NCBI GenBank assembly: GCA_007376385.1 | Contig: VMGC01000001.1 | Location: 320,001-384,000 of the forward strand | Direction of reading: 5' to 3' | Source: Parcubacteria group bacterium Gr01-1014_8 | GTDB taxonomy: Bacteria > Patescibacteriota > Minisyncoccia > Phycocordibacterales > UBA2100 | Length of the DNA stretch: 64,000 nt | In this document: piece by piece, positions 19,321-35,925 of the stretch | Position numbering within the stretch: the first letter of the stretch is position 1 | Layout: every line of letters starts with the position of its first letter | Notes under the pieces: model-generated | What the model was told of the DNA's origin: nothing | The model's database searches: none | Seen by the model: the letters and a program-made list of their open reading frames with translations, nothing else | Made by a program: the position numbers and the translations under genes

Positions 19321-20274
19321 ATGGCTCATGAGATAGTTCTCGGCGATACGACATACATTTCTTCAAAGCGCGCAGCCGAGATTACTGGATATGCCCAAGA
19401 TTATATTGGCCAACTCGCGCGTGCGGGGAAGATAATTGCACGAAGAATTGGAGGCCTTTGGTATGTTCTCGAAGAGTCTTTAAACAACTATAAGGCTGTG
19501 GCAGAACTTTATGTAGCGACTCCACCTCGGATGGATGATTCATACGCTTCTGCCTCTAAGGTTGCTGACACCCTTATTTCATTTGATGGAAAAGAGTATG
19601 TTTCAGCATCAGAAGCGGCTAGGCAGACTGCATATCACCAAGACTATATCGGGCAGCTAGCACGTACCGGCAGGATTTTGTCTAAGCAAGTCGGAGCGCG
19701 TTGGTTCGTCGAATTAAAAGGTCTAAGGGCTCACAAAGCCGAAAAAGATGCTCTCTTGGCTGCGGTGCAGCGTGAATCAGTGGGCCTTGTCCGCCCTGCA
19801 AAGAGCGGTCCCGATGCCGACAACTACAAGGTGCATTTCACATATACAGCTGATGAGAGGGAACTCCTGCCGTCTCTCCTTCGCAAAGATGCCTCAGGCA
19901 GCAATATTCAGCAGGATGCGGCCGAGTTAGAGCACGTAATACCGATTCGTATTGTGCGTGTTCCTCAAAATCCGGCAACAAGCAGCTATTCAGCTCGATC
20001 TGCTACTCGCTCCGTGCGGTTGCGAGTAAGAAAACCCTTATATTATGGTAGCTTATCCGCCGTGCTGGTGACTGTAGTGATTGTCATCGCATTTCATATA
20101 AATATACTAAACGCTGTCCCGATATTCGCGAATACCAACAAGTCGGGCGTTTTAAAAAACACGGCTCTTGCGGGAATAATTATGAACGTCGCAGCGGACT
20201 TTGCGGATCTCGCTCATGAATTGTTAGGGAATAAAGTCATTTACAATCGAGGTTCATACAAGCCCGATTTCTAG
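19321..20274 (+). CDS. Tail-anchored membrane protein with two tandem HTH_17/excisionase(MerR)-like motifs
   Basis: YISSKRAAEITGYAQDYIGQLARAGKIIARRIGGLWYV and YVSASEAARQTAYHQDYIGQLARTGRILSKQVGARWFV are two copies of the same motif. A single TM helix LYYGSLSAVLVTVVIVIAFHINIL sits near the C-terminus, preceded by RLRVRKP (positive-inside). The same motif is at the N-terminus of the downstream 4051-aa protein. Confidence 0.55.
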   Translation: MAHEIVLGDTTYISSKRAAEITGYAQDYIGQLARAGKIIARRIGGLWYVLEESLNNYKAVAELYVATPPRMDDSYASASKVADTLISFDGKEYVSASEAARQTAYHQDYIGQLARTGRILSKQVGARWFVELKGLRAHKAEKDALLAAVQRESVGLVRPAKSGPDADNYKVHFTYTADERELLPSLLRKDASGSNIQQDAAELEHVIPIRIVRVPQNPATSSYSARSATRSVRLRVRKPLYYGSLSAVLVTVVIVIAFHINILNAVPIFANTNKSGVLKNTALAGIIMNVAADFADLAHELLGNKVIYNRGSYKPDF

Positions 20275-20597: not shown

Positions 20598-23500
20598 ATG
20601 TCTGATGAAATCTTTTTTGATGGTGTTCGATATATTTCGGCGCAGGAAGCTGCGACGTCGTTAGGTTTTTCGCGAGATTACATTGCGAGGCTTGCTCGAA
20701 TAGGCAAAGTCAAAGGCCGACAAATAGGAAAGAATTGGTACGTCGAATTTCGCTCAGTTCAAACGTTTGTCCTTGAGCAGGAGTACTTGCAGGGAAAGCG
20801 TAGAAAGGAGCTTGCGGAGAAGCGAGTCTTCGAATACCGCAAGCAGGTTGGCAGTACGGACGAGAGATCGAGCGATATTGTTGCCCCAGTTATTTTTGCC
20901 GATGCTGTATCAGTTTCTGCAAAGCAAAACAAGAGACATGCGGCTATTAAGGCGATGCTCGCGCGTGCAATGTCTCGCCGCGCCGACTTGAAGGTTCTGG
21001 CGCATGCGAACCGCGTTCATACGCCCTCGTTTTTTTCTGTGACGCCTGCCGTTGAGTTTCTGCACAAACTCACTGCTCTCATTACAGCGTTTGTACTGAC
21101 TTTTGGCGCGTATGCTTTTGTTAATGCGGACTACGCTCATTTTGCACTCGATTCTATACGCTCTGCTTCACGGAGTGTTGTTGCTGTCCCGAAATTGGTC
21201 TGGGGAGGTGATGCAGCACGTTGGGGTTCAGATACAGGTGCGCAACTCGCAGCTGTTGCATTGCAGACAGCTCAGTCGGCAAACCAAGCTGAATCATCCA
21301 TTACTTCATTCATGTCATCTGCCGCAAGAAATTTCAACCTTCACGTTAATGACTTATTGTACGGAGTTATTTATCCGAACATTCCTGGCATGGGTTCTTT
21401 CGCGTTCTCATCTGCGCGTGGCCGCGTCGATATTCAAATTGTTCCGTATCGCAGCGATGCGCCTGCAGCAAGATCGGCACCTGCTCCCTTGATCCGAACA
21501 GCAGTGTCAGCTCCAACAACTGTCATCAATCAACCGATAGTGGAACGCATCAGAGAGACGAAGAGCGTTGTCACGCTCGGCGGGATCAGTGAAGAGCTCC
21601 TAGCATCCAAGTTGCTTGAGCTCGACACCAAACTTTCTTCTCGCATGTTGTCGCTCACCTCTTCTAACGCAACGAGCATTACCCAGGTATATAACACCGT
21701 CGGCCAAATGGGTCGTATTGAACATTTAGATGATCTTGATCTTACAAACCCAACGATTACGAGAGGCACGTTGACGAACGTGAGGATCTCATCTCTTTCA
21801 GCCCCTCTCACAATCTCTGACGGCGGCACTGGAACCTCTAGCGCTCCTACGTATGGAAAAGTTCTCTTAGGAAATTCGAGCGGTGCGTATGATCTCGTCG
21901 CGACCTCATCGCTGGGTGTCGGCGGAACACCCGGCGGCTCGAGCACGCAGGTGCAATTTAACGATAGCGGTGCTTTCGGTGCGGATTCCACATTTACTTT
22001 CAACAGCACCAGCAATCTTCTTTCTTTCTCGAGCGCGTCATCTTCGTTGCAGTCTATTTTTGATCGCCTGTATGTCGGCGGAACGGCGACGACGACCATC
22101 TTCGGCTCCGCGACTTCCACCTTCGGGGCTGGTATCGAGACAACTGCCTTGAACGTTACTTCGAATAGCGCGAGCAGCACATTCGCAAACGGTATCTCGC
22201 TCTCTGCCGGGTGTTTCCGCGACGCGAGCGGGGCATGTCTGCAGAGCGCGACATTTGCGTATCTCTTCCCATCGGACGCAACCACAACCAAACTCACGTT
22301 CTCTGGCGGTTTGATCTCGCTCGCTTCAACGACGATCGGCAATGGCACACAAGCGGGAGGACTCACGATCTCCGGCGGCGCGACGACGACAGGGAATCTC
22401 TTGGTGCAGGGCAATGCGACGACGACAAACTTGGCAGTGTCTGGCACCGCATCGTCATCTGCCCTCGTCGCATCAAATTCATTTACGTTCTCGAATATAA
22501 CAGGCTTCCTCAAGGCGACCGCCGGCGTTGTCGCAACGGCCGCCATCAATCTCGCCTCCGACATCACCGGCATTCTTCCTGCTGGAAATGGCGGCACGGG
22601 ATGGGGCAATATCGCAGCGAACACGATCGTGCTTGGGAACGGCACGGGAGCTATCGCAACGACGAGCGCCGGCACCAACGGCCAGATGCTCGCGCTTGTT
22701 TCGGGAGTGCCGACGTGGACCGCGACGACCACATTCTCAGCCCCACTTGTATTTTTCGCAGGCAATGTCTCGATCGCAGCCTCGAATGGCAGCACAGACG
22801 GCTATCTCACTTCCGCTGACTGGACGCTCTTCAACAACAAAGTCTCTTCTTCTTCGCTCTCGACATTCACGGCAGCCTTCAAAGACTGGAACATTACGAC
22901 AAACACATTCGGCCAGTCCTCTCTCGCTCCAACAACAACGCAAAACATCGCAGTCACAGGCGTCGGCACATCCACATTCGCCGGAGGATTAGAAGCGTGG
23001 AGACAAATAGGCGCTCCATACTTCAACGCTACAAGTTCATCCGCAACGTCAACCTTCGCTGGTGGATTAAATGTGCTCGCCATTAACCAAACTGGTTCTG
23101 CGACATCGACGTTTGCGAATGGTTTGCAGCTTTCGAATGGTTGTATCCGATTACCCTCAGGGAGCTGCTTGGCATCTGTCGCAAATTCTTCGATTGATGA
23201 TCTTAGCGACGTCACTATCACCGCCGCCGCATACGGCGACCTTTTGATGCACAACGGGACTGCATGGGTTGATACTGCCACTAGTTCGCTTGGAATATTC
23301 ATTTCAGACACCGTTGGGACACTTGCCGTGGGGAGAGGAGGCACGGGGCTATCATCGACACCAACGTACGGCCAACTGCTCGTCGGAAATGCTTCGAGCG
23401 GCTACACGCTTTCCGCGACATCAACGCTCGGCATCGCGCTCTCTGACACCATAGGAACGCTGGCGGCGACACGGGGTGGTACAGGACTCTCATCCATCAC

Positions 23501-26500
23501 CAACAACCAACTTCTTCTTGGCGGCGCAGGAAACACGGTCACACAGATCGCCACTTCTTCGCTAAACCTTCTCACGACCGACATAATCGAAGGTTCAAGG
23601 CTTTTCTATACGGACAACCGTGTAGACACATACATACATGGGTCAACCACAATTCCAAAGACATACACAGCAAACACGTTCACGGGGGCGAACACATTCA
23701 ACAGTACTTTTACTCTCGGCACGCTCAATGGTCCCTTGCACGCAAACGCCGGCGTCGTCGGTGCGACGACATCTGTTCTCGCGATCTACGGCGGAACCGG
23801 GCAGACCTCGTATTCAACGGGTGACATTCTCTACGCATCCGGCGCAGCCGCACTCTCGAAACTCGGGATCGGCGGTGCGGGAGAGGTTCTAAAAATATCG
23901 GGAGGTGTCCCGACGTGGGGAACTGATTTGACTTCCGGAGGTGGCGCGGATGGCACATGGTCGACGACTACCTCACAAGTCTCTGGCACGTTGATCAATT
24001 ACCCTAACAATGCATCCGACATCGTTGCCATCGGCTCCACGGCGACGACATCTGCGGAGTACTGGTTTGACCCGAATACGACGATTGCCTATCTTTCAGG
24101 AAAAGTTGGCATCAGCACCACCTCCCCCTACTCAAAGTTAACGTTGTGGGGGAGCGCCTCACTATTTGAGGCAGTGAACACATCTTCGACAACGATCTTT
24201 TCAATAGGCCAATCAGGCGCGACAACAACGAATCTCGGAATTTCGGGAATAGCAAGTTCCCTGCTCAAAACAACATCTACCGGAGGAGTGGTTGCTGCGA
24301 TACCCGACACCGATTACCTCAATACCGCAAGTTCGATCGAATTACTTGGCGACGTCGCCGCGATGACGGAGAATTACGGCGATCTCTTGTATTGGAATGG
24401 CTCCGCGTGGGCTGATCTTGCGACGTCATCGCTTGGGATTGCGATCAGTGACACCACGGGAACACTTGCAGTTGCACGAGGCGGCACTGGTCAAACCACA
24501 TTCTCCTCCTCGCAACTTCTCTACGGAAACGGAACCAACGCGCTTTCGTCTGTCGCAACCTCCTCACTCTCCGCAGGAACCGGTGTCACGTTCTCTGGAA
24601 CTGCCGGCTCTCTCGTTGGAGGCACTGCACTCACCATCAATACACCGTGGACCATCTCCGGAAACAACATCTACAACAACAACATTGCAAATGCCGCCAT
24701 CGGCACATCAACTCCCTACGCCACCACCACGATCTGGGGTAACACTGCTTCAAAGATATTTGAAGTCGTTGCAAACGCTTCATCCACCGTATTCTCTGTT
24801 GCACAAAGTGGAGCTACTACAACCAACCTCGGCATTACTGGCGTCACCAATTCGCTCTTGAAGACCACATCAACCGGTGGAGTCGTTGCAGCGGTCGCAG
24901 GCACGGATTACGCGACACTGTCACAAACATTTGGAAAAGCGTGGGAGATCGACGGTAACGGCTTTACCGGATTCCTTGCACCGACAACAACGCAGAAAGT
25001 GTGGATCGGGCAGGCGTCGTCGACGCTTCTATCGGTGAATGGCCCTGCATACTTTGGCTCAACCGCAACCTCCTCATTCTCAACCGCCGGCGTCCTCACG
25101 CTTGCCACCGATCTCGCAGTCACCGAAGGAGGCACCGGAGCTTCCACGCTCACCGGCCTTCTCCAAGGAAACGGCACGTCGGCGTTCACCGCCATCACTG
25201 ATTCATCCACGGTGGGACAGATACTCCGTGTGACTGGTGCATCAACATACGCCTGGGGAGCACTGAACCTTGCAGACACTGACGCCATCACCGGAACGCT
25301 TCCCATCTCCAACGGAGGCACCAACAACACCACCTACTCCACCAACGCGCTCCTCTACTTTGACGGAACATCCATCACTGCTACTTCCACCAGACCCCTC
25401 TACGTCGGCGCTATCAATGCCACCACAACAGCCACCTCCACTTTTGCAGGAGGCATCTCTGTTCTCAACTTCGCACAGACAGGAACAGCAACAAGCACGC
25501 TCGCAAACGGGCTCACCTTAACCGGTGGCTGTGTCATGGTGAACGGAAACTGCATCTCACCCGTTGGGAACTCCTCCATCGAAGATTTGAACGACGTTGC
25601 TGCGATGACGGAGAACTATGGAGACCTTCTTGGATGGAACGGCAGCACGTGGACTGACTTTGCCACCACCTCACTCTTCACCGGTTCCAACGGGCAGATG
25701 CTTGCATACGCGAATGGCGGGTGGACGGGAGTTGCAACAACAACAGCCGGCACTGGTCTCACATACACCGGCTCTGCGTTCAATGTTGACCTTGGTACCT
25801 CTATTAGCGCAGCTGAGATCGCAGACGGCGATCACGGCGACTTCACATACACCAGCGGTGTTGCAGCCATCGATGCAAACGCCGTCACCCTCGGCACCGA
25901 CACAACAGGGAACTACGTTGCAACACTCGCAGATTCAGGCGGAGGAACACTCACCATCTCCAACTCAGGCAGCGAGACAGCGGCAGTGACAGCCTCCCTC
26001 AACCTTGGCAACGCCAACATCTGGACTGGCAAGCAGAACTTCTTTGGTTCTGCATCGTCGACGCTGTTCTCAGCGAACTGGCTCAAAGTCGGTCAAACAG
26101 CATCAACCACATTCGATTCCGCTGGCAACGCAACCATCGGCGGCACCTTGAACGTCACCGGTCAAACTACACTTGCCACTTCACTCACTGGATTACTCAA
26201 AGCAACCGCAGGAGTTGTCTCCTCTGCAACAGAAGGCACTGACTACCTCTCCAATGCACTCCGCGATTGGTCAGTACAAGGCAACGGATACCTTGCACCA
26301 ACGACAACGAGAGGAATCATCGTTGTTGCATCATCCACCATCGGCGCGGGAGGACAAGCGACGGGGCTCACCATTTCAGGAGGCGCGACGACGACGGGGA
26401 ATGCGTATTTTGCAGGGAATGTGGGTGTTGGGACAGCTGCACCAAGTCAAAAATTGCAAGTTGTTAACGGCGCTATTGATATCAACACCGACGACCAGTT

Positions 26501-29500
26501 CTTGTACTTCGGTAGCGGGGACGCCGGCATCAGGGAAAGCGGTGCCAATTTGAAATTTGAGACGTATACGGGCGCTGCACTCACCGAAAAAATGAGAATT
26601 ACTGGCGCAGGCAACGTCGGCATCGGGACCACCACTCCCGCAACCCTCCTCTCCATCGCCGGCACGAGCGGCCTCTTTGCCTCCACGACCGCCACCTCCA
26701 CCTTCCAAGGCGGCGGGATTAACTTGCTCACGGCGGCGGGGAATACGGGATGCTTTGCGGTGAATGGGACGTGTCTTTCCAATACCGCTTCCGGCATCGT
26801 CGGAAGCGGCACCACCGGACAATTTCCGTACTATGCCGCCAACGGCACGACTTTGACGGCGACCTCGACACTTTTCGTCTCGACCGCGAGCAATGTTGGG
26901 ATCGGTGCCACCTCTCCCGCAGCAAAGTTAGACGTCGAAGGTTCCGGTGCGGTCTTGACCGACATCATGGTAGGCAACTCACAGGCCAATGCAAACTTCG
27001 GTATTTCCGCGGCAGGAGTTCCCCACCTTTGGACGAACAATGCCTCGTGGCCGCTTGTGCTCGGTGTCGGTGGCGCAGAGAAAATGAGAGTGCACACGGA
27101 TGGAAACGTAGGGATCGGAGCAGGTGCAACGGGTCCCGGGGCACTCCTCACGGTTGACTCTGGTGCAGCGTCTCTCACGGACATCTTGGTCGGCAACTCG
27201 CAAGCGAACGCGAATTTCGGAATCTCCGCAGCGGGCGTAGCCCATCTGTGGTCAAATAATTCAAGTTGGCCTCTTGCGTTCGGCATTGGAGCCGCGGAAA
27301 ATATGCGAATCCACACGAACGGCAACGTGGGGCTCGGGAACACCTCCCCCTCCTACAAACTCGACGTCGCAGGGTTCATCAACACCGACCAATTCTCCGG
27401 CTACAAGCAGAACGGCACGACCATTCTCTATTCATCTTCGACGCTTGCCACGATGTTCGGCGGCTACCAGGCCGGCAATGGTCAAGTGCAATCAGGAACC
27501 GGACTCTACAATACCGCGTTTGGCTATCAGGCGCTCTTGAGCGCCACGTCGTCTAGCAGAAGCACAGCGGTCGGCTTTTCAGCGCTCGCAAGTCAGGCGA
27601 ATGCCAATGGCAACGATGCGCGTAATACCGCAGTTGGTTCCCAAGCGCTCGGCGGCACAACGTACGGTTACTACAACACAGCTGTCGGCTCTGATGCTCT
27701 CGCTGCCAACACGACCGGATACTTCAACAGCGCATTTGGCCAGGGCGCGCTCACTGGCAATACGACCGGCCGCGATAACATTGCAATTGGCTACAATTCC
27801 GTGAGTCAAAGTACAGCCGCCCTCGAAAATATAGGTATCGGCAACTCCTCGCTTTCAGGAGCGTCGCTCACGGGGGCAGACAACATCGCTATCGGTCGGC
27901 AGGCTGGGAGCGCCATGTCGAGCGGGAGTTACAACATACTGATTGGCCAATATCTCTACAACAGCGGCACCGTCTTTACTGGCTCAAACAACATCATCAT
28001 CGGGCGCGACATCGGCTCGACCGCATCTCCCTTGGTTTCGACGACAACAAGCAACGCGCTCAACATCGGCAACTTGATTTTCGCGACCAGTCTCGGCACG
28101 GCGGACACTCTTTCGACGGGTAATGTGGGTATTGGAACAGCGGCACCGAATTATCAACTTTCAAACAACTCCGCGAGTAATAACCTGGATTCGGGTTCCA
28201 CGGGGCTCTCGACCGCAAGTAGTTTCAACTGGGCGAACAACGGCTCCGGCTACGGTGCAGGATTGTATAACGCAAGCGCCAATTCGGATGCAAACGGGCT
28301 GTTGGTAAAAATTCGCGGTACGGCCTCTACCAACAAAATTCTCTCGCTCGACACGGGCACGACGCAAGCCGGCGCGGGAACAAATGTGCTGACGGTATTA
28401 GGAAGCGGCAACGTCGGCATTGGGACGACGAGTCCGCGCAGCGCCCTCTATTTCCAGGCGAACAGTAGCGATCCATCGTTAACATCATGGACAGGCATAG
28501 GGACGATGCGCGCTAGTACTGGTGTAGAACTTGCGATGGGTGCAGACGATACGACACCTTTCGGCGCGTGGCTGCAAACGAAAGACAGCACAAATGGCGG
28601 TACATCCTATCCACTGCTCCTCAATCCTCTCGGCGGCAACGTTGGCATCGGGACGACTACGCCTCAAACGGCGTTGCATGTAAACGGTATTCTCGCGGCA
28701 ACGCCAAGCTACGGCTTTTACTGGTACAACGGGGCAACATTCAAAGGCGCACTCAAGCATAACTCATCCAACGATAACCTTGAGATATACACCGCCTCTG
28801 ATGGCAGCACGCCGCGGCTCACAGTCCAAAGTTCTTCCGGCAACGTCGGTATCGGGACGACCAGTCCCGTGTCGATACTTGCTGTTGCTGGTGCCAATCC
28901 TGTACTTACCCTCAATCAAACGAGTAGCGGTAATGTTTCTGGCTTAAAGATAACGAATGGAGTAAATACGCTAGGCACATTTACAGTAGCAATAGATACA
29001 GGCGAGGTCAGGATAGGTGGTACGTCTAGCGGCGGTTATTATGATACTTTCTACGCCGATGGTTCGGAAAGGATGAGGATTACAGCAGCAGGCAACGTCG
29101 GCATCGGGACGACGACGCCGCAGTGGCTTTTGAATCCGACTTCGGCAAGCGCATCACAACTTGCCCTTTCGGCGGGGGCGGGCATCGCGCAATGGACGTT
29201 TAGGAATGCAGGCGGGAATTTGTATCTCTCAACAACTACCGTTGCAGGAACCGCAACGACATCGATAAGCGCGCTTGAGATTGCGGGCGGAGGATTAGGA
29301 ACGACAACCGTGAGAGGGCTAAACATCAGCGCTGGCGCAACATCAACGTCTAATGTGGGCTTCTCACTCACGAGCGGATGCTTTGCAACGCCCGCGGGCT
29401 GTATCTCGGGCGTTGGCGATTCTTCCATCGAAGCATTGAACGACGTTGCTGCGATGACGAAAAACTTCGGTGACTTACTGTATTGGAATGGCACAACATG

Positions 29501-32500
29501 GACTGATCTAGCAACGTCGTCGCTTGCGGTAAATTTCTCCGACCTCATTGGTTCAGCGACAGATGCACAGGTTACGAATGCGCTCACAATTTCCGGCGGC
29601 GTGATTTCGGGGACGAACACGGTGTCGGGTACGTGGAATACGACAAACACGCTTACCATCGGGAACGGCGGCGACCGCATCGACGTCAATTCGAGCGGAT
29701 GGGATGTGACGGACAGCGTGATTTCAGGCGCAACCTATCAAGGCAACACGATTGGCACCACCTACGGAGGCACAAATGCGACAGGTTTCAGCAGCCATGC
29801 GCTTCTTGCATTTAACGGTACGAGCATCGTCGCAACGTCTACTATCGGCTTTCAGTCATTTAATGCGACATCAACCACTGCGACGTCGACCATTGCTGGC
29901 GGCCTTGCAGTCGAGACCTCCGGCCTCGTGTACGACTACTCGACCAACCGCGTCGGCATTGGGACGGCGAGCCCTTCCAACAAATTACATATTGCATCAT
30001 CCGCGAATGACTCAACGCTTTTCATACAGCAAACGTCTGGCACACAGCGAGCTGATATCCGGATCGACAACGACGGCGGCTATATGCTTATCGGCCGCGA
30101 AAACAGTGCTGGCGGATCACTTGCGGTCGGTTCGACCGGCTATTTTGGCGTCATGAATGTCAACAATGCCTACGGTCTGCAATTTGGTACCAACAACACC
30201 GTCCGAGCGACGATCGACTCCTCCGGCAACGTCGGCATCGGGACGACGAGTCCAGCGACTTCGCTTTCAGTATCGGGAAGCGGGTACCTCACTGGCGCGC
30301 TTGGCGTAGGCGCGGTCGCGACGGGCTTCACCAACCTTCTCGTCAATGACAACTCAAACACTGCGCACAATAACGATGAGGGTATTGTTGTGAAAAATAC
30401 AAACACTGGCAGTTCTGCCGGCGCTAGCATCAATCTTCGAAACGACGGCACATATCATGGATTCATGCAGATGAATTCTGGGGCAAACACATCATTGGCG
30501 GGAGCAAATAGTTTCAACATCGGTGCTGAGCACAACATTAATTTCGGATTCATCACCAATGATGCGCTTCAGATGACATTGAATACCACCGGTCTCGGCA
30601 TCGGGAACACCTCCCCCTCCTACAAACTCGATGTCGCGGGGTTCATCAACACCGACCAATTCTCCGGCTACAAGCAGGCGGGGAATACTATACTGTATGC
30701 GTCGAGCACGAATGCCACGGTATTTGGTGGACAAGGCGCAGGAAGCGCGATGCAAACGTCTGGAACCGGTGCGTACAACACCGCGTTTGGGTACGGTGCC
30801 CTTACTACAGCGACATCGTCTAGTAGAAGCACTGCAATTGGATTTAATGCACTCGCCAACCAAGCGAACAGTAACGGCAACGACGCACGCAACACGGCCG
30901 TCGGTTCCGACTCTTTGGCGGCAACTACGTACGGCTACTACAACGTCGGCGTCGGCGCCTCGGCGCTCACCGCCAACACGACAGGCGCTTTCAACGTGGC
31001 ACTTGGTGTCGGGGCTTTGCAGACGGCAACATCCACGAACAACGTGACTGCCATCGGCTACAACGCGCTCGGCGCTATGATTTGTTGCGGCCCGGCAGGG
31101 ACGACGCCGGCAAATGTCGTGGTAGGCCACCAAGTCGCTCGTCAAGCGACGACTGCCTACGGTATTACAGGAATCGGGTATGGCGCCTTGGATTCGCTCA
31201 CGACCGGACACGACATCGTGGCACTTGGATCGCAGGCAGGGCATATGGTCACGACTGGCACTAACAGTATATTCCTTGGCGATCTCTCCGGCTTCAAAGA
31301 CAGTGCCGGTGCGAACACCGCCATCACGGGCGACAACAATATCATCATCGGCAATAACCAGCTCATGATCCCGAACGCCGCCGGCTCCAATCAACTCAAC
31401 ATCGGCAACCTCATCTTCGGCACCAGCCTCTCAACCGGCGCGACAGTTTCGACCGGCAACGTCGGCATTGGGACGACGAGCCCACGTTCGATTCTCCACG
31501 CTGTGGCCGGTGCTTCGGGAGTTTTGCCCAACGCAGGCACGACCTTCACTATGGAGAGCAACACGGCCAACTACTTGAGCATGCTCACAGCGAGCAACGC
31601 CGCAAACGGAATTCTCTTTGGTACGCCGACGAGCGCAATCGATGCCGGCATTCTCTACAACAGCAACGGTTCGGCACGAGATTTGCAGTTCCGCACCGGC
31701 GTCAACAACACGCGGATGACGATTGATTCTACCGGCAACGTCGGCATCGGGACGACGACGCCGTTTCGCAAACTTTCTATCACGGATGCAGTATCGACCG
31801 CACAGCAAGCGATCGCGTACGACTCGACGCGCTGGACTGACCTCCTTACAGACTCTGTTGGGGATCTCACCATCAATCCGCAAGGCGACGATGTGTTCTT
31901 GAATGCGGACAATCTTTGGGTGTGTACCGGCGGCTCGTGTCCGAGCGGGACGCCAGCAGGGACGGGTAATTTGATCGTTGAAACGAAATTGGGCGTGGCC
32001 AGTTCGACACCGTTCGCGACGCTCGGTGTGAAGGGTTCTGCTGCATCGACGGCATATACGTTCATGACAACCAACAGTTCCGATTCTCCGACGTTCAACA
32101 TCCAAGATAACGGCAATGTGGGTATTGGTACCACGACGCCCACGAAACAATTTTCCATCTCGAGTCTCCTCTATGTCGGTGCAGGCGGTGCAACAGGAAT
32201 GGGAACAGCGACATCGACTTTCCAAGGTGACATCAAGATAATTGGTAAACTTGATGTCGGTACGATTGACCCGGTCTATACAATAGACGGCACGAAGTAT
32301 GCGACGTATGGTCATTCAACCGTTGGTATCAAAGAAGAGGTAACGGCAAAACTGGCAGTCAACGAGTATGACGAAGCTCGAGATTTGTATCGAACAACAA
32401 TTCGTTTCGATGAGTTGGAAAAGGGAAGCGACCTTTGGCTTTTCTATGAGATCACTCGATTCGGACTTGAATGGGAGCATCTCGTCGTGAACTTGACGCC

Positions 32501-32753
32501 GGCATTCGACGGCCGCGTGTTCTACGAAGAAGATATCGTCGAGAACTCTCTGACAATATACGCCGACAAGTCCGGCTTTGTTTCTGCGCGGCTCATCGCG
32601 GACAGATTCGACGCAGAAACGTGGCCGAACATTCGTCCTGACCAGGACGGAAATACCGAAGGCACGCACAATATAACTTCGAAATTGCCGGGAGGGGTGC
32701 TCCGAGCGGCAGCTACAGCAACCGAAGCCGTCTCATCGTGGTTCAATGAATAA
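20598..32753 (+). CDS. Giant (4051 aa) repetitive Gly/Thr/Ser/Ala/Asn-rich surface fibre protein. N-terminal cytoplasmic HTH_17-like motif and one TM helix (N-in), then about 3880 aa of extracellular beta-rich repeats
   Basis: Single uninterrupted 12,156-nt ORF. N-terminus YISAQEAATSLGFSRDYIARLARIGKVKGRQIGKNWYV. TM helix LTALITAFVLTFGAYAFV at about aa 163-182. GNVGIGTTSP-x-x-KL recurs more than 10 times. The module DVAAMTENYGDLL-WNG--W-DLATSSLGI-ISDT-GTLA--RGGTG occurs 4 times. NTA-G--AL / NTTG beta-roll-like repeats. Two segments have near-identical DNA (about 27340 and about 30604; NTSPSYKLDVAGFINTDQFSGYKQ). Confidence 0.8.
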   Translation: MSDEIFFDGVRYISAQEAATSLGFSRDYIARLARIGKVKGRQIGKNWYVEFRSVQTFVLEQEYLQGKRRKELAEKRVFEYRKQVGSTDERSSDIVAPVIFADAVSVSAKQNKRHAAIKAMLARAMSRRADLKVLAHANRVHTPSFFSVTPAVEFLHKLTALITAFVLTFGAYAFVNADYAHFALDSIRSASRSVVAVPKLVWGGDAARWGSDTGAQLAAVALQTAQSANQAESSITSFMSSAARNFNLHVNDLLYGVIYPNIPGMGSFAFSSARGRVDIQIVPYRSDAPAARSAPAPLIRTAVSAPTTVINQPIVERIRETKSVVTLGGISEELLASKLLELDTKLSSRMLSLTSSNATSITQVYNTVGQMGRIEHLDDLDLTNPTITRGTLTNVRISSLSAPLTISDGGTGTSSAPTYGKVLLGNSSGAYDLVATSSLGVGGTPGGSSTQVQFNDSGAFGADSTFTFNSTSNLLSFSSASSSLQSIFDRLYVGGTATTTIFGSATSTFGAGIETTALNVTSNSASSTFANGISLSAGCFRDASGACLQSATFAYLFPSDATTTKLTFSGGLISLASTTIGNGTQAGGLTISGGATTTGNLLVQGNATTTNLAVSGTASSSALVASNSFTFSNITGFLKATAGVVATAAINLASDITGILPAGNGGTGWGNIAANTIVLGNGTGAIATTSAGTNGQMLALVSGVPTWTATTTFSAPLVFFAGNVSIAASNGSTDGYLTSADWTLFNNKVSSSSLSTFTAAFKDWNITTNTFGQSSLAPTTTQNIAVTGVGTSTFAGGLEAWRQIGAPYFNATSSSATSTFAGGLNVLAINQTGSATSTFANGLQLSNGCIRLPSGSCLASVANSSIDDLSDVTITAAAYGDLLMHNGTAWVDTATSSLGIFISDTVGTLAVGRGGTGLSSTPTYGQLLVGNASSGYTLSATSTLGIALSDTIGTLAATRGGTGLSSITNNQLLLGGAGNTVTQIATSSLNLLTTDIIEGSRLFYTDNRVDTYIHGSTTIPKTYTANTFTGANTFNSTFTLGTLNGPLHANAGVVGATTSVLAIYGGTGQTSYSTGDILYASGAAALSKLGIGGAGEVLKISGGVPTWGTDLTSGGGADGTWSTTTSQVSGTLINYPNNASDIVAIGSTATTSAEYWFDPNTTIAYLSGKVGISTTSPYSKLTLWGSASLFEAVNTSSTTIFSIGQSGATTTNLGISGIASSLLKTTSTGGVVAAIPDTDYLNTASSIELLGDVAAMTENYGDLLYWNGSAWADLATSSLGIAISDTTGTLAVARGGTGQTTFSSSQLLYGNGTNALSSVATSSLSAGTGVTFSGTAGSLVGGTALTINTPWTISGNNIYNNNIANAAIGTSTPYATTTIWGNTASKIFEVVANASSTVFSVAQSGATTTNLGITGVTNSLLKTTSTGGVVAAVAGTDYATLSQTFGKAWEIDGNGFTGFLAPTTTQKVWIGQASSTLLSVNGPAYFGSTATSSFSTAGVLTLATDLAVTEGGTGASTLTGLLQGNGTSAFTAITDSSTVGQILRVTGASTYAWGALNLADTDAITGTLPISNGGTNNTTYSTNALLYFDGTSITATSTRPLYVGAINATTTATSTFAGGISVLNFAQTGTATSTLANGLTLTGGCVMVNGNCISPVGNSSIEDLNDVAAMTENYGDLLGWNGSTWTDFATTSLFTGSNGQMLAYANGGWTGVATTTAGTGLTYTGSAFNVDLGTSISAAEIADGDHGDFTYTSGVAAIDANAVTLGTDTTGNYVATLADSGGGTLTISNSGSETAAVTASLNLGNANIWTGKQNFFGSASSTLFSANWLKVGQTASTTFDSAGNATIGGTLNVTGQTTLATSLTGLLKATAGVVSSATEGTDYLSNALRDWSVQGNGYLAPTTTRGIIVVASSTIGAGGQATGLTISGGATTTGNAYFAGNVGVGTAAPSQKLQVVNGAIDINTDDQFLYFGSGDAGIRESGANLKFETYTGAALTEKMRITGAGNVGIGTTTPATLLSIAGTSGLFASTTATSTFQGGGINLLTAAGNTGCFAVNGTCLSNTASGIVGSGTTGQFPYYAANGTTLTATSTLFVSTASNVGIGATSPAAKLDVEGSGAVLTDIMVGNSQANANFGISAAGVPHLWTNNASWPLVLGVGGAEKMRVHTDGNVGIGAGATGPGALLTVDSGAASLTDILVGNSQANANFGISAAGVAHLWSNNSSWPLAFGIGAAENMRIHTNGNVGLGNTSPSYKLDVAGFINTDQFSGYKQNGTTILYSSSTLATMFGGYQAGNGQVQSGTGLYNTAFGYQALLSATSSSRSTAVGFSALASQANANGNDARNTAVGSQALGGTTYGYYNTAVGSDALAANTTGYFNSAFGQGALTGNTTGRDNIAIGYNSVSQSTAALENIGIGNSSLSGASLTGADNIAIGRQAGSAMSSGSYNILIGQYLYNSGTVFTGSNNIIIGRDIGSTASPLVSTTTSNALNIGNLIFATSLGTADTLSTGNVGIGTAAPNYQLSNNSASNNLDSGSTGLSTASSFNWANNGSGYGAGLYNASANSDANGLLVKIRGTASTNKILSLDTGTTQAGAGTNVLTVLGSGNVGIGTTSPRSALYFQANSSDPSLTSWTGIGTMRASTGVELAMGADDTTPFGAWLQTKDSTNGGTSYPLLLNPLGGNVGIGTTTPQTALHVNGILAATPSYGFYWYNGATFKGALKHNSSNDNLEIYTASDGSTPRLTVQSSSGNVGIGTTSPVSILAVAGANPVLTLNQTSSGNVSGLKITNGVNTLGTFTVAIDTGEVRIGGTSSGGYYDTFYADGSERMRITAAGNVGIGTTTPQWLLNPTSASASQLALSAGAGIAQWTFRNAGGNLYLSTTTVAGTATTSISALEIAGGGLGTTTVRGLNISAGATSTSNVGFSLTSGCFATPAGCISGVGDSSIEALNDVAAMTKNFGDLLYWNGTTWTDLATSSLAVNFSDLIGSATDAQVTNALTISGGVISGTNTVSGTWNTTNTLTIGNGGDRIDVNSSGWDVTDSVISGATYQGNTIGTTYGGTNATGFSSHALLAFNGTSIVATSTIGFQSFNATSTTATSTIAGGLAVETSGLVYDYSTNRVGIGTASPSNKLHIASSANDSTLFIQQTSGTQRADIRIDNDGGYMLIGRENSAGGSLAVGSTGYFGVMNVNNAYGLQFGTNNTVRATIDSSGNVGIGTTSPATSLSVSGSGYLTGALGVGAVATGFTNLLVNDNSNTAHNNDEGIVVKNTNTGSSAGASINLRNDGTYHGFMQMNSGANTSLAGANSFNIGAEHNINFGFITNDALQMTLNTTGLGIGNTSPSYKLDVAGFINTDQFSGYKQAGNTILYASSTNATVFGGQGAGSAMQTSGTGAYNTAFGYGALTTATSSSRSTAIGFNALANQANSNGNDARNTAVGSDSLAATTYGYYNVGVGASALTANTTGAFNVALGVGALQTATSTNNVTAIGYNALGAMICCGPAGTTPANVVVGHQVARQATTAYGITGIGYGALDSLTTGHDIVALGSQAGHMVTTGTNSIFLGDLSGFKDSAGANTAITGDNNIIIGNNQLMIPNAAGSNQLNIGNLIFGTSLSTGATVSTGNVGIGTTSPRSILHAVAGASGVLPNAGTTFTMESNTANYLSMLTASNAANGILFGTPTSAIDAGILYNSNGSARDLQFRTGVNNTRMTIDSTGNVGIGTTTPFRKLSITDAVSTAQQAIAYDSTRWTDLLTDSVGDLTINPQGDDVFLNADNLWVCTGGSCPSGTPAGTGNLIVETKLGVASSTPFATLGVKGSAASTAYTFMTTNSSDSPTFNIQDNGNVGIGTTTPTKQFSISSLLYVGAGGATGMGTATSTFQGDIKIIGKLDVGTIDPVYTIDGTKYATYGHSTVGIKEEVTAKLAVNEYDEARDLYRTTIRFDELEKGSDLWLFYEITRFGLEWEHLVVNLTPAFDGRVFYEEDIVENSLTIYADKSGFVSARLIADRFDAETWPNIRPDQDGNTEGTHNITSKLPGGVLRAAATATEAVSSWFNE

Positions 32754-32861: not shown

Positions 32862-32874
32862 ATACGCTTGTGTG

Positions 32875-34040: not shown

Positions 34041-34604
34041 TTGACAATGCGTAAGCGAGATTTCTTCTACATCGCACTTCTCTGCTTTCTGCCTGCAGCT
34101 GCCTTCGCGGTGACCATGACCGTAAACACTGTCGTGACGGGCAATGTAAGTGTAGTCGGAGCGCTCTCGAAGGGTTCCGGTACGTTCATGATTGATCACC
34201 CGCTTGACCCGAAAAATTCGCTCCTGTACCATTCGTTCCTCGAATCTCCTGACGTCAAGAACATCTACGACGGTGTCGCGAATCTCGACAAGAACGGAGA
34301 GGCCACGATCGCGTTACCAGGTTATTTTCTTGCACTCAACAAGGATTTCAGGTATCTCGCGACATCAATGAGCGGGCCTATGCCGAATCTGCATCTCATG
34401 CGCGGAGTTCGGAGAGAGTGGTTTGTAGGCGACCCTACATTCAGGATAGCTGGGGGCGTACCGGGCGGCACTATCTCCTGGCAGGTAACGGGTATACGCA
34501 AGGATCCTCTCATTGTCGCGAATCCTATTATAGTCGAAGTTGAAAAGGGTGCTGAAGCACTGATATTAAAGGGGGAGTGTCTCTTTGAACTCCTTTGCAG
34601 ATGA
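34041..34604 (+). CDS. Secreted protein, paralog 1 of 3 sharing an unrecognised ~140-aa C-terminal domain
   Basis: Signal peptide MTMRKRDFFYIALLCFLPAAAFA, then GSGTFMIDHPLDPKNSLLYHSFLESPDVKNIYDG...ISWQVTGIRKDP...ANPIIVEV...CLFELLC. Confidence 0.6.
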   Translation: MTMRKRDFFYIALLCFLPAAAFAVTMTVNTVVTGNVSVVGALSKGSGTFMIDHPLDPKNSLLYHSFLESPDVKNIYDGVANLDKNGEATIALPGYFLALNKDFRYLATSMSGPMPNLHLMRGVRREWFVGDPTFRIAGGVPGGTISWQVTGIRKDPLIVANPIIVEVEKGAEALILKGECLFELLCR

Positions 34605-35925
34605 ACATATAATTATCATGCACACAAAACTTTCGACATATTCGTTGTTTTGGTGGGCTCTTGCACTCATCGTCGGCATTTCTTTTTTGCTTGCGCTTCT
34701 CTTTCCTGTAGAGAGATTGTCAGCCGCGCCCACGGTAAAAATCTATCTTGATTCAGGAACATCATTCGTCATCCCCGGAGATTGGAACTCTTCAAACAAT
34801 TCTATCGAAGTTATCGGCGGCGGCGGCGGCGGCGGTACTCCAAGCGCTCTTTGTAGCGCCGGAGGAGGAGGCGGCGCATATTCAAAAGCCGCGAACGTCT
34901 CGCTTACGGCCGGTGCGTCGGTTACCTACGCTATTGGTGATCGCGGTATCGAACAGACGGCAGGGGGTGATACGTATTTTTGTAATTCGACGTTGAACTG
35001 CGCTTCCATTTCTGGTACTGCCGTGCAGGCAGGTGCGAAGGGCGGAAATGGCGCCAGCGGTGGCACTGGAGGATCTGGCGGTGCATCCGCAAGCGGCGTT
35101 GGAAGCACCAAATTTAGTGGGGGAAATGGCGCCGGAACTGGAAGCAGCACTGGCGGCGGCGGCGGAGGTGCTGCTGGACTAAATGGTGCAGGTAATAACG
35201 GCTCGGGAACAACTGGCGGTAGTGGCGATGCTGGAAACGGCGGTGCAGGTGGGACCGCAAATAATCCCGGTGGTGCGGGTACCGAATACGATTCTGTACA
35301 CGGTTCCGGCGGAGGCGGTGGCGGAGCAACGGGCGCGGGCGGTGGCGCAGCGGGAGGGAATTTTGGGGGCGCCGGCGGCGGCGGATGCGCATCTGGAGGC
35401 ATCGGTAAACGAGGGATGATTGTTCTTACGTACGTTTCGTCTGCGACTCTTACACTTTCCGGAAATGTTAAATTCGCCGGCAATTTAACCATCACTAGTA
35501 CTTTAGCAAAAAGCTCCGGCACATTTGTGATTGACCATCCGCTCACGCCGCGCACGCATCTTTTGTACCACTCATTTGTTGAATCACCGGAAGTGAAGAA
35601 TCTCTACGACGGTATTGCAAAACTTGACGCGCAGGGCGAGGTAGCAATCGAGCTTCCCGATTATTTTGAAGCACTGAACAAAGATTTCCGCTATCAATTC
35701 TTTCCTCACTTCGAAGCGATGCCTGGTCTCTATGTGAAGCAAGAAGTGAAGGACAACTCATTCATCATAGCTGGAGGAAAGCCGGGCGGAGAAATATCGT
35801 GGCAAGTCACGGGTATCCGCCACGATGCGTTTATTCTCGCAAATCCGATTATCGTTGAGGTCCCGAAAACAAACTCGACTGTCGTGCCGAGGGGTATGTG
35901 TCTGTTTGAGCCGTTATGCAAATGA
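34585..35925 (+). CDS. Secreted Gly-rich protein, paralog 2 of 3 (same C-terminal domain)
   Basis: N-terminal TM/signal. About 230 aa of extreme Gly-rich low complexity (VIGGGGGGGTPS...GGGGGGAAGLNGAGNNGSG...). The C-terminus SSGTFVIDHPLTPRTHLLYHSFVESPEVKNLYDG...ISWQVTGIRHDA...CLFEPLC is shared with the neighbours. Confidence 0.6.
   Translation: MNSFADEHIIIMHTKLSTYSLFWWALALIVGISFLLALLFPVERLSAAPTVKIYLDSGTSFVIPGDWNSSNNSIEVIGGGGGGGTPSALCSAGGGGGAYSKAANVSLTAGASVTYAIGDRGIEQTAGGDTYFCNSTLNCASISGTAVQAGAKGGNGASGGTGGSGGASASGVGSTKFSGGNGAGTGSSTGGGGGGAAGLNGAGNNGSGTTGGSGDAGNGGAGGTANNPGGAGTEYDSVHGSGGGGGGATGAGGGAAGGNFGGAGGGGCASGGIGKRGMIVLTYVSSATLTLSGNVKFAGNLTITSTLAKSSGTFVIDHPLTPRTHLLYHSFVESPEVKNLYDGIAKLDAQGEVAIELPDYFEALNKDFRYQFFPHFEAMPGLYVKQEVKDNSFIIAGGKPGGEISWQVTGIRHDAFILANPIIVEVPKTNSTVVPRGMCLFEPLCK

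What the first reader, a model, noticed from the sequence alone, without database searches (positions are those of the whole stretch)
20598..32753. 4051-aa modular giant surface protein with recent internal duplication
A single 12.2-kb ORF with no stops is built from recurring modules. GNVGIGTTSP-x-x-KL occurs more than 10 times. A ~60-aa module centred on DVAAMTENYGDLL-WNG-xW-DLATSSLGI-ISDT-GTLA-x-RGGTG occurs 4 times. NTA-G-x-AL/NTTG repeats resemble beta-roll or beta-helix fibre repeats. Two regions (about 27340-27800 and about 30604-31080) are near-identical at the DNA level over their first ~70 nt and similar for several hundred codons, indicating recent duplication or gene conversion. 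Such giants in small-genome, likely episymbiotic, bacteria are candidates for host attachment. The motif set resembles phage tail-fibre and adhesin repeats, but I cannot assign it.
Basis: seen in the sequence. Interest (0 to 1): 0.6.

Follow-up and report, generated by a model that had tools for sequence, protein, structure and literature searches.

The report
Membrane-anchored phage-tail-fibre-like giant surface fibre
This 4051-residue gene of an ultrasmall (Patescibacteria) bacterium most likely encodes a very long cell-surface fibre built from the same modules as phage tail fibres, held in the membrane by an unusual DNA-binding-type domain, and it is the longest member seen here of a conserved but unannotated gene family whose middle section varies enormously in length.

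Summary
The ORF (20598-32753, +, 4051 aa) and its repeats are real. Two other public assemblies are base-identical over the parts they cover. The longest exact internal repeat is 39 nt, so repeat collapse is unlikely.

Predicted architecture:
- a cytoplasmic HTH_17-type domain (aa 12-60)
- one transmembrane helix (aa ~158-175)
- a ~3500-aa mosaic shaft
- a conserved C-terminal beta-sandwich tip

The GNVGIGTTSPxxKL motif (16 copies) corresponds to the 'capping loop' of the intertwined trimeric beta-helix in phage S74 tail fibres and Bdellovibrio MAT fibres. These are the only solved structures the protein hits (E 8e-7). The NTAxGxxAL blocks model as right-handed parallel beta-helix, as in tailspikes.

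Relatives occur across Patescibacteria in a conserved locus: SecA, GatB, a 2xHTH+TM protein, the fibre, three small secreted proteins, then Cys-rich paralogs. They share only the first ~390 and last ~320 residues. Complete HTH-type ORFs run from 988 to 3103 aa.

The 'recent duplication' is really an old one (57% aa identity) carrying a 77-nt recent gene-conversion tract (75/77 nt; p=5e-6).

A surface fibre is well supported. Trimer state and host attachment are inferred. I rate it a new variant of a known kind.

The parts
20598..32753 (+). Giant fibre gene, 4051 aa
   Evidence: Single ORF. Identical in the ENA assembly over 16244-30274, with a gene call of the same 4051-aa length.
20631..20777 (+). 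N-terminal HTH_17-type (excisionase/MerR-like) helix-turn-helix domain, aa 12-60, predicted cytoplasmic
   Evidence: Pfam PF12728: E 8.2e-6, 26.4 bits (cut-off 27) when aa 1-100 are scanned alone. 22 of 27 family N-termini match, best E 9.9e-9. It is paralogous to the HTH domains of the upstream gene.
21069..21122 (+). Single hydrophobic segment LTALITAFVLTFGAYAFV (aa 158-175), a predicted signal-anchor transmembrane helix
   Evidence: Read from the sequence. It is preceded by basic residues, which suggests N-in topology. In one search, seven of the ten complete HTH-type orthologues of at least 900 aa carrying the HTH start showed exactly one hydrophobic segment at aa ~95-310 at the 1.8 threshold. 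The giant, L014, L030 and L039 fell just below that threshold.
20598..21767 (+). Conserved N-terminal 'base' (aa 1-390): HTH, linker, TM helix and an unassigned juxtamembrane region
   Evidence: 3049 cluster representatives at E<1e-3 and 81 at E<1e-30. 33% identity to orthologues L039 and L025 over the whole region. No Pfam hit for aa 200-480.
23187..23486 (+). WNG module 1 (DV..GDLL.HNG.AW.D) with two ISDT..GTLA..RGGTG units, aa 864-963. It follows a disulfide-loop unit ATSTFANGLQLSNGC..C.
24330..24491 (+). WNG module 2 with one RGGTG unit, aa 1245-1298
25572..25676 (+). WNG module 3 (first half only), aa 1659-1693
29421..29528 (+). WNG module 4 (first half only), aa 2942-2977
26415..32147 (+). 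Capping-loop-rich shaft (aa 1940-3850): 15 copies of xNVGIGTTSPxxKL spaced 65-288 aa apart
   Evidence: Motif list. phmmer hits to Bd3182 (8ojn_C, E 8e-7, aa 3188-3283) and Bd2133 (8ond_A, E 5.4e-6, aa 1927-2078). tblastn of aa 2602-3331 hits annotated phage tail fibres.
27276..28151 (+). Beta-helix block 1 (aa 2227-2518): NTAxGxxALxxNTTGxx repeats with a 17-residue period
30510..31487 (+). Beta-helix block 2 (aa 3305-3630), an old paralogue of block 1
   Evidence: 57% aa identity over 309 aligned codons.
27334..27410 (+). Gene-conversion tract, copy 1 (encodes GNTSPSYKLDVAGFINTDQFSGYKQ)
   Evidence: 75/77 nt identical to 30601-30677. 23 of 25 codons for identical residues match, versus 65 of 151 in the rest of the block; Fisher p=4.8e-6.
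30601..30677 (+). Gene-conversion tract, copy 2
   Evidence: As for copy 1.
31734..32684 (+). Conserved C-terminal region (aa 3713-4029): last capping loops plus the tip
   Evidence: 40-56% identity to orthologues whose shafts are otherwise unrelated.
32274..32624 (+). Tip domain core (aa ~3893-4009), a beta-sandwich
19321..20274 (+). Upstream conserved partner gene: 317 aa, two HTH_17 domains and a C-terminal TM helix
   Evidence: PF12728, E 8.7e-7. Sequence. An orthologue sits directly upstream of the fibre gene in L039, L025, L014, L030, L028 and L037.
34041..36647 (+). Three tandem small secreted proteins (187, 446 and 243 aa) sharing a ~140-aa C-terminal domain; conserved downstream neighbours of the fibre gene
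   Evidence: Sequences. The triplet is present downstream of the tip-bearing gene in most related loci. No Pfam or PDB relative. Not detectably homologous to the fibre tip (hhalign probability 11%).

Best explanation
The gene most likely encodes a type-II membrane-anchored, extracellular fibre of the phage-tail-fibre / Bdellovibrio MAT kind, probably homotrimeric.

Proposed arrangement:
- A small HTH_17-type domain (aa 12-60) and a charged linker stay in the cytoplasm.
- One hydrophobic helix (aa ~158-175) spans the membrane.
- The remaining ~3870 residues are exported.
- They form a shaft that alternates two module types. One is intertwined beta-helix segments delimited by 'capping loops' (xNVGIGTTSPxxKL). 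The other is single-chain right-handed parallel beta-helix blocks (NTAxGxxAL repeats). Disulfide-loop and WNG/GGTG modules sit in the proximal half.
- The shaft ends in a conserved ~130-aa beta-sandwich tip.

Scaling from the published MAT fibre dimensions (0.4-0.6 Å per residue) gives a fibre roughly 150-230 nm long. That is about the diameter of the cell itself.

The conserved tip is proposed to do one or both of two jobs. It may nucleate C-terminal trimer folding, taking the place of the S74 chaperone. It may bind a conserved ligand on a host cell or on the envelope.

The shaft evolves by module duplication, loss and exchange. Short gene conversion between paralogous modules also occurs.

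Status of each step:
- Shown: the ORF, the motifs, sequence homology to MAT and phage fibre modules, the conserved ends with a variable middle, synteny, and the conversion tract.
- Inferred: topology, trimer state, fibre length, ligand binding and host attachment.
For: - The only PDB sequence relatives of the whole protein are Bdellovibrio MAT fibres: Bd3182 (8ojn, E 8e-7) and Bd2133 (8ond, E 5.4e-6). They align through the capping loops.
- A profile of the C-terminal region hits five PDB chains, all MAT fibres.
- The MAT paper shows these loops cap an intertwined trimeric beta-helix shared with the phage T5 and K1F S74 fibres.
- There are 16 capping-loop copies.
- Shaft segment aa 2602-3331 hits phage genes annotated as tail fibre or chaperone of endosialidase at 30-38% identity.
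- Block aa 2227-2520 has 1839 homologues, most of them 400-510-aa proteins ending in Peptidase_S74.
- The tip models confidently as a beta-sandwich. Its best viral fold matches are phage tail and tail-fibre proteins.
- The N-terminus is HTH_17-like, followed by a single hydrophobic segment, as in most of the orthologues checked.
- Complete HTH-type ORFs carrying the same base and tip range from 988 to 3103 aa, and one truncated tip-bearing ORF (N-terminus not seen) reaches at least 3502 aa. All lie in a conserved chromosomal locus of Patescibacteria.
- The surrounding genes are envelope-related: GT2, PMT_2, Wzy_C, SecA and Lnt.
Against: - No oligomer prediction or experiment was possible. The trimer rests on homology of short motifs, with E-values of 1e-6 to 1e-7.
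- The tip is conserved at 40-70% identity across several candidate phyla. Receptor-binding tips of phage fibres and MATs are usually the variable part, so a host-specific adhesin role is not the obvious reading.
- Pfam recognises nothing in the 3900 extracellular residues.
- The HTH_17 score of this protein alone is just below Pfam's cut-off (26.4 versus 27 bits).
- The TM helix was judged by hydrophobicity only (mean KD about 2.0 over 18 residues), not by a dedicated predictor.
- A cytoplasmic DNA-binding-type domain has no obvious role in a plain adhesin.
Confidence: 0.6

Rival explanations
1. It is a structural envelope fibre or spacer, not a host adhesin. The conserved tip would bind a conserved self component, such as the cell wall, an S-layer, or one of the co-conserved neighbouring secreted proteins. 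The shaft would set a distance or form the fibrous coat of the cell.
For: - Both ends are conserved while only the shaft varies.
- The gene sits in a core syntenic locus, next to three small secreted proteins and Cys-rich paralogs that are co-conserved.
- Envelope glycosylation genes lie nearby.
- Fibrous coats attributed to giant membrane proteins have been described for a CPR bacterium (PMC8080830).
Against: - There is no evidence that the tip binds any neighbouring protein.
- The tip is not detectably homologous to the neighbours' shared domain.
- Phage-fibre-type modules are typically used to reach foreign surfaces.
- Extreme variation in shaft length is hard to reconcile with a fixed spacing role.
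Confidence: 0.25
2. It is a membrane-tethered HTH regulator or DNA tether with ToxR-like topology. The giant fibre would act as an extracellular contact or tension sensor. Its state would be relayed to the cytoplasmic HTH_17 domain, which binds DNA, together with the upstream 2xHTH+TM protein.
For: - An N-terminal HTH_17-type domain followed by a single hydrophobic segment is seen in most family members examined.
- A paralogous 2xHTH_17+TM protein is always encoded immediately upstream.
- The cytoplasmic domain is among the better conserved parts of the protein: 41-56% identity over aa 1-82 in the closer orthologues L025, L030 and L037.
Against: - DNA binding is untested. HTH_17-like folds can serve other roles.
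- No target sites or regulated genes are evident.
- The promoter scan of the upstream intergenic region was uninformative.
- No signalling domain or cleavage motif was found.
- Some tip-bearing relatives have a plain signal peptide instead of the HTH, so the fibre does not need it.
Confidence: 0.1
3. It is a phage or prophage tail-fibre gene, or cargo of a mobile element, and not a cellular gene.
For: - Modules are shared with phage tail fibres.
- IS200-type Y1 transposase genes flank the locus: 32875-33561 on the minus strand (E 1e-8), and a weak match at 18405-19130.
- GC3 is higher in the shaft than in the neighbours.
Against: - The gene lies between SecA/GatB and conserved cellular genes, in the same order in many genomes.
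- No other phage genes were seen among the window ORFs scanned against Pfam.
- The protein has an N-terminal membrane anchor instead of a virion-attachment domain.
- The tip has no relative in 2.9 million viral contigs.
Confidence: 0.03
4. It is an assembly artefact: a chimeric join or collapse of repeats creates a false long ORF.
For: - The gene is repetitive.
- The k=31-based Logan assembly fragments at the repeats.
- The exact-sequence look-up of the 4051-aa product failed.
Against: - The longest exact internal repeat is 39 nt.
- An independent ENA contig is identical over the 14 kb compared and calls a 4051-aa product.
- The Logan contigs are identical up to their break points.
- Orthologues of 2000-3500 aa exist in many assemblies, some on contigs above 200 kb.
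- An uninterrupted 12-kb frame is not expected from mis-joins.
Confidence: 0.02

Closest known systems
Mosaic adhesive trimer (MAT) fibres of Bdellovibrio bacteriovorus (Bd3182, Bd2133, Bd1334, Bd2439; Caulton et al. 2024, PMC10769870)
   Same: - These are the only solved structures with sequence similarity.
- They share the capping-loop motif (VGxGTxxPxxxL) that delimits intertwined trimeric beta-helix segments.
- Both are mosaic shafts on a bacterial surface.
- Non-S74 members also end in a beta-sandwich tip.
   Different: - MATs are about 1000 aa. They have a signal peptide and a conserved ~130-aa beta-rich N-terminal domain, and their tips vary.
- This protein is 4051 aa with an HTH_17 domain and TM anchor. 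Its tip is conserved and unrelated in sequence to any MAT tip. Its shaft is the hypervariable part.
- It comes from Patescibacteria, described as having a single membrane in the one CPR cell imaged. No Patescibacteria appear in the MAT paper's supplementary text that could be searched.
Phage tail fibres and tailspikes with a C-terminal Peptidase_S74 intramolecular chaperone (T5 pb1, K1F endosialidase; PF13884)
   Same: - The NTAxGxxAL beta-helix block and the capping loops are homologous to the pre-S74 parts of more than 1800 such proteins and of annotated phage fibres.
- The block has a tailspike-like parallel beta-helix fold.
   Different: - There is no S74 domain (no Pfam hit).
- The protein has a membrane anchor instead of a virion-attachment domain.
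- It is 5-10 times longer.
- It sits in a chromosomal syntenic context.
Giant membrane and surface proteins of CPR bacteria proposed for host attachment (e.g. Vampirococcus lugosii, 1392-4163 aa; PMC8080830)
   Same: Both are ultrasmall bacteria with very large, membrane-located proteins proposed to form a fibrous surface and mediate host contact.
   Different: The Vampirococcus proteins carry WD40, PKD, integrin, fibronectin and DUF11 domains. This family is built from phage-fibre modules with an HTH_17 anchor. No description of it was found in the papers searched.
Trimeric autotransporter adhesins (YadA/Hia type)
   Same: - Both are proposed trimeric, repetitive, Asn/Gly/Ala-rich solenoid adhesins.
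- JGI labels several homologues of the NTA block 'trimeric autotransporter adhesin'.
   Different: - There is no YadA anchor or head by Pfam.
- A profile of the block finds no TAA in the PDB.
- The model is a right-handed beta-helix, not a YadA beta-roll.
- The anchor is N-terminal and alpha-helical.
ToxR/CadC-type membrane-bound one-component regulators
   Same: The predicted topology matches: an N-terminal cytoplasmic HTH, a single TM helix and an extracytoplasmic domain.
   Different: - The HTH is of the HTH_17 (excisionase/MerR-like) type, not the OmpR type.
- The outer part is a 3870-aa fibre, not a compact sensor domain.
- No DNA binding has been shown.

Membership tests
MAT superfamily (Caulton et al. 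2024) | Capping-loop motif on an intertwined trimeric beta-helix shaft | tested here: met
   Met at sequence level only. There are 16 motif copies. phmmer gives E 8e-7 to Bd3182 and 5.4e-6 to Bd2133, aligned through the loops. The C-terminal profile hits only MAT chains.
MAT superfamily (Caulton et al. 2024) | Signal peptide followed by a conserved ~130-aa beta-rich N-terminal domain | tested here: inconclusive
   The N-terminus is HTH_17 plus one TM helix, not a signal peptide. The juxtamembrane region aa 190-390 has no Pfam hit. It could not be compared with the MAT N-domain, because no MAT N-terminal sequence or structure was available in the libraries.
MAT superfamily (Caulton et al. 2024) | Homotrimer along the whole length | not testable with these tools
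   Only monomer AlphaFold2 was available.
MAT superfamily (Caulton et al. 2024) | C-terminal S74 domain or an independently folding alternative tip | tested here: met
   There is no S74 domain. The tip is an independently folding beta-sandwich with core pLDDT above 90, so it is of the non-S74 type.
Peptidase_S74 tail-fibre proteins (PF13884) | C-terminal intramolecular chaperone/protease domain with the SDxxxK motif | tested here: not met
   Pfam gives no hit, even at E up to 10 on the C-terminal 422 aa. S74 is present in homologues of the beta-helix block but not here. The SDxxxK motif itself was not searched for.
Trimeric autotransporter adhesins | C-terminal YadA beta-barrel anchor and YadA-like head or stalk repeats | tested here: not met
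HTH_17 (PF12728) excisionase/MerR-like helix-turn-helix | Match to the family profile above the gathering score | tested here: inconclusive
   This protein scores 26.4 bits against a cut-off of 27, E 8.2e-6. 22 of 27 family N-termini match at E up to 0.01, best 9.9e-9. The upstream paralogue scores 29.6 bits. Membership is likely at family level. DNA binding is untested.
Right-handed parallel beta-helix (pectin-lyase-like) fold | Single-chain solenoid of three-stranded coils | tested here: met
ToxR-like membrane-bound transcription regulators | Cytoplasmic DNA-binding domain, single TM helix, extracytoplasmic sensor; binds DNA | not testable with these tools
   The topology is compatible. DNA binding and signalling cannot be tested in silico here.

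The most novel reading that the evidence does not exclude
The family may be a contact-sensing device and not just a passive adhesin. In this reading, a cell-length extracellular fibre is wired directly to a cytoplasmic HTH_17 DNA-binding domain and works with the always-adjacent 2xHTH+TM protein. Host contact, tension or cleavage of the fibre would change gene expression. Alternatively, the nucleoid would be tethered to the site of host contact. This would give ultrasmall episymbionts a one-protein link between host touch and the genome.
Probability: 0.08. Interest if true: 0.85.

Novelty: new variant of a known kind. Interest (0 to 1): 0.55.

Why it matters
How Patescibacteria outside the few cultured Saccharibacteria recognise and hold on to hosts is unknown. 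Most of their conserved envelope genes are labelled 'hypothetical'.

This work defines a widespread, syntenic and unannotated gene family in Paceibacteria-type genomes. The family reuses phage tail-fibre and MAT building blocks on a new membrane anchor. Its base and tip are conserved, and its shaft ranges from about 600 to more than 3500 residues. That gives concrete reagents for testing attachment, namely the tip domain and the HTH domain. It also gives a marker locus.

There is a practical point too. These genes break short-read assemblies, so public catalogues hold mostly fragments: most of the 77 tip homologues are short pieces on small contigs, and nearly all those with NCBI names are labelled 'partial'.

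The kind of molecule is not new. Phage-like trimeric fibres on bacterial surfaces, and giant CPR surface proteins, have both been described.

Tried and rejected
Searches that failed or found nothing:
- The homology search with the whole 4051-aa protein timed out. Sub-regions were used instead.
- That tool returned only proteins up to about 1.75 times the query length: at most 350 aa for a 202-aa query and at most 513 aa for a 294-aa query. The short length of its hits therefore says nothing about biology. Full-length relatives were obtained from genome loci and from the exhaustive representative search.
- The exact look-up of the giant protein found nothing, although the ENA contig carries a 4051-aa gene call. 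The last 2.5 kb of the ENA copy could not be fetched.
- Alignment A1 was too diverse for locus finding. The narrower A2 worked.
- Rfam and tRNA scans of the window found nothing.
- Promoter and terminator scans were uninformative.

Ideas tested and rejected:
- I suspected that the fibre tip and the shared C-terminal domain of the three downstream small proteins were homologous. hhalign gave a probability of 11%, so this was rejected.
- I looked for an S74 domain at the C-terminus. It is absent.
- I looked for the tip in viral contigs. There was none.
- Literature searches found no description of this family.
Full report
**1. Observation**

The window holds one uninterrupted ORF at 20598-32753 on the + strand. 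It starts with ATG and has 4051 codons. The product is rich in Thr, Gly, Ala and Ser, which together make up 50%.

- GNVG[IVL]G occurs 13 times.
- The fuller pattern x-N-V-G-I-G-T-T-S-P occurs 16 times: once at aa 1168 and 15 times between aa 1940 and 3839, spaced 65-288 residues apart. It occurs nowhere else in the window in any frame.
- The 'DV...GDLL.WNG..W.D.AT[ST]SL' unit occurs four times (aa 871, 1252, 1666, 2949). The following 'ISDT.GTLA..RGGTG' unit accompanies only two of them, with one extra tandem copy.
- The DNA at 27334-27410 and 30601-30677 is 75/77 identical. Identity then falls to about 70%.

**2. Is the ORF an assembly artefact?**

Three lines of evidence say no.

- The ENA contig ERZ27284378:k139_22030 (36 kb) is 100% identical to window 16244-30274 and carries a gene call of the same 4051 aa.
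- A Logan contig of run SRR8863434 is 100% identical to 16244-27363 and ends inside the 77-nt tract. Another begins at about 31734, exactly at a 30-nt GNVGIG repeat. A k=31 assembler is expected to break there.
- The longest exact repeat inside the gene is 39 nt. That is too short to mislead assembly from reads of 100 nt or more.

The 3' 2.5 kb could not be compared with the ENA copy, and the exact look-up of the product failed. That small gap remains.

**3. Organism and context**

- Upstream genes: SecA (13461-16094), GatB (16388-17833), and envelope glycosylation genes (GT2, PMT_2, Wzy_C-TPR, AsnB, methyltransferases).
- Downstream genes: unannotated secreted proteins, Lnt and sulfatases.
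- Homologues of the tip, the base, SecA and GatB come almost entirely from Patescibacteria MAGs: Kaiserbacteria, Adlerbacteria, Nomurabacteria, Paceibacterota, Uhrbacteria and Colwellbacteria.
- The genome itself is not among the GTDB representatives. The best tip identity is 70%.

**4. Anatomy**

*(a) N-terminal domain.* Residues 12-60 match HTH_17 (PF12728). The match is weak in the whole protein (E 0.0016). It is nearly at the curated cut-off when aa 1-100 are scanned alone (26.4 versus 27 bits, E 8.2e-6). 22 of 27 family N-termini match.

*(b) Membrane anchor.* After a charged linker there is one hydrophobic stretch, LTALITAFVLTFGAYAFV (aa 158-175), preceded by basic residues. Seven of the ten complete orthologues of at least 900 aa carrying the HTH start showed one such segment at aa ~95-310 at the threshold used. 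This protein and three others fell just below the threshold. The inferred topology is N-in, C-out.

*(c) Conserved base.* aa 1-390 forms a conserved 'base'. It has 3049 cluster representatives at E<1e-3 and 81 at E<1e-30.

*(d) Shaft.* The shaft is a mosaic.
- The proximal half has disulfide-loop units (ATSTFxxGLxLxxGC...C), WNG units and GGTG units.
- The distal half has capping-loop modules and two ~300-aa blocks of 17-residue NTAxGxxALxxNTTGxx repeats.

*(e) Tip.* The last ~320 residues are conserved. They end in a domain that AlphaFold2 (65-sequence alignment) models as a beta-sandwich with pLDDT above 90 over the core.

**5. What the modules are**

Pfam, NCBIfam and PHROGs recognise nothing outside the HTH.

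*Capping loops.* Against PDB sequences the whole protein hits only two entries, both Bdellovibrio MAT fibres: Bd3182 (8ojn, E 8e-7) and Bd2133 (8ond, E 5.4e-6). The alignments run through the GNVGIGTTSP motif. A profile of the C-terminal region hits five chains, all MAT proteins. Caulton et al. (PMC10769870) show that this motif is the 'capping loop' of an intertwined trimeric beta-helix. That helix is shared with the S74-type phage fibres T5 pb1 and K1F endosialidase and with MyRF.

*Shaft versus phages.* Shaft residues 2602-3331 hit phage genes annotated as tail fibre or chaperone of endosialidase, in cyanophages, pelagiphages and roseophages, at 30-38% identity.

**6. The family**

A genome scan with the tip found 63 loci. 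Reading the tip-bearing ORFs gave the following.
- Complete genes of 988-3103 aa begin with the same HTH motif (MSDEIFFDG..YISA.EAA....DYI.RLCR.GK).
- One copy is at least 3502 aa long and is cut by the locus limit, so its N-terminus was not seen.
- Other tip-bearing genes have a plain signal peptide instead of the HTH.

The exhaustive search with the base found members up to 3439 aa. None of the top 150 is as long as this one.

Pairwise comparison shows that orthologues share only aa 1-390 (about 33%) and aa ~3713-4029 (40-56%). The shafts share just scattered modules.

Gene order is conserved in many genomes, for example L039, L025, L014, L030 and L037:
1. SecA
2. GatB
3. a 317-aa protein with two HTH_17 domains and a C-terminal TM helix
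4. the fibre gene
5. three small secreted proteins with a common ~140-aa C-terminal domain
6. Cys-rich paralogs

So this is a core cellular locus, not a prophage. Public records call all sampled members 'hypothetical protein'.

**7. The internal duplication**

The two beta-helix blocks align over 309 codons at 57% amino-acid identity. Among identical residues only 65 of 151 use the same codon. The duplication is therefore old.

Within aa 2246-2271 and 3335-3360, 23 of 25 codons for identical residues match (Fisher p=4.8e-6). The boundary is sharp. The simplest reading is a short, recent gene-conversion tract between old paralogous modules. Selection on the nucleotide sequence itself cannot be excluded.

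GC3 is higher in the shaft (0.57-0.68) than in the base (0.46) or the neighbouring genes (0.44-0.57). This is compatible with module exchange but is not proof of it.

**8. Mechanism proposed**

The protein would be inserted as a type-II membrane protein. The ~3870-residue ectodomain would fold into a fibre, probably trimeric, made of alternating intertwined and single-chain beta-helix segments.

Scaling from Bd3182 (922 aa, about 550 Å) and the Bd2133 tip construct (370 aa, about 145 Å) gives about 150-230 nm. This is an inference.

The conserved tip may nucleate trimer folding in place of S74, bind a conserved ligand, or both. The cytoplasmic HTH and the adjacent 2xHTH+TM protein may form an anchoring platform. 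They could also couple the fibre to DNA. That second possibility is the most novel reading and is untested.

**9. Comparison and novelty**

The closest known systems are the Bdellovibrio MAT fibres and the S74 phage fibres. The shaft chemistry is shared. The anchor, the tip, the size, the pattern of conservation (ends conserved, shaft variable) and the lineage all differ.

No Patescibacteria appear in the MAT paper's supplementary text that could be searched. Giant CPR surface proteins have been proposed as host-attachment fibres before, but with other domains. Multiple adhesins are essential for epibiotic growth in Saccharibacteria.

I therefore rate this a new variant of a known kind. It is of moderate interest and useful for CPR cell biology, but not a categorical surprise.

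Noticed in passing
window 32875-33561 (-), 32746-33795 (+) and 18405-19130 (+): An IS200-type Y1 transposase gene (PF01797, E 1e-8) lies on the minus strand directly after the fibre gene. The 349-aa + strand ORF overlapping it looks spurious: it is Arg/Trp-rich and has no hits. A second, weaker Y1_Tnp-like gene (E 0.003) lies two genes upstream. Similar genes occur at varying positions in related loci.
   Followed up: partly
window 34041-34604, 34585-35925, 35916-36647: Three tandem small secreted proteins share a ~140-aa C-terminal domain (GSGTFxIDHPLDPKNxLLYHSFxESPxVKNxYDG...VSWQVTGIRHD). The middle one also has a long Gly-rich stretch. The triplet is conserved downstream of the fibre gene in most related loci. 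It has no Pfam or PDB relative and is not detectably related to the fibre tip.
   Followed up: partly
window 36698-37888, 37830-38933, 38930-40063: Three paralogous Cys-rich proteins of about 370-400 aa, each with an N-terminal hydrophobic segment, have no Pfam hit. They are conserved in synteny with the fibre locus and are multi-copy in related genomes.
   Followed up: no
window 19321-20274: The upstream 317-aa protein has two HTH_17-like domains and a C-terminal TM helix. It is conserved directly upstream of the fibre gene and is paralogous to the fibre's own N-terminal domain.
   Followed up: partly
window 20598-32753, by segment: GC3 is 0.46 in the N-terminal base. It is 0.57-0.68 in the shaft, and highest in the two beta-helix blocks. 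Neighbouring genes are 0.44-0.57. GC skew also turns negative over 22-28 kb.
   Followed up: no
P0009, P0012; L060, L062, L064: The same tip domain also ends short proteins (about 330-1100 aa). These start with a signal anchor followed by 'AWTGPT.APP..N' instead of the HTH. The tip is therefore a module used on more than one kind of base.
   Followed up: no
L022, L045, L048, L049, L052, L055, L057, L063, L068: Some tip-bearing contigs are labelled Gammaproteobacteria, Ectothiorhodospiraceae or Elusimicrobiaceae MAGs. L022 also carries the Patescibacteria-type small-protein triplet, which suggests a binning error. L048 and L049 (about 1800 aa) have no capping loops and may be a different family.
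   Followed up: no
tool behaviour; the search for homologous proteins returned only proteins up to about 1.75 times the query length. Separately, the ENA gene call of 4051 aa was found neither by exact look-up nor as a near-identical hit in either protein library. Giant proteins may be under-represented in those indexes.
   Followed up: partly
window 40128-41636 (-) and 52344-53894 (-): Two paralogous proteins of about 500 aa have a weak N-terminal cupredoxin-like match.
   Followed up: no
window 797-12614: A cluster of envelope glycosylation genes lies upstream: a nucleotidyl-transferase/mannose-6-P isomerase, two GT2 genes, PMT_2, AsnB, two methyltransferases and Wzy_C-TPR. The Thr/Ser-rich fibre could be a glycosylation substrate, but this is speculation.
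   Followed up: no
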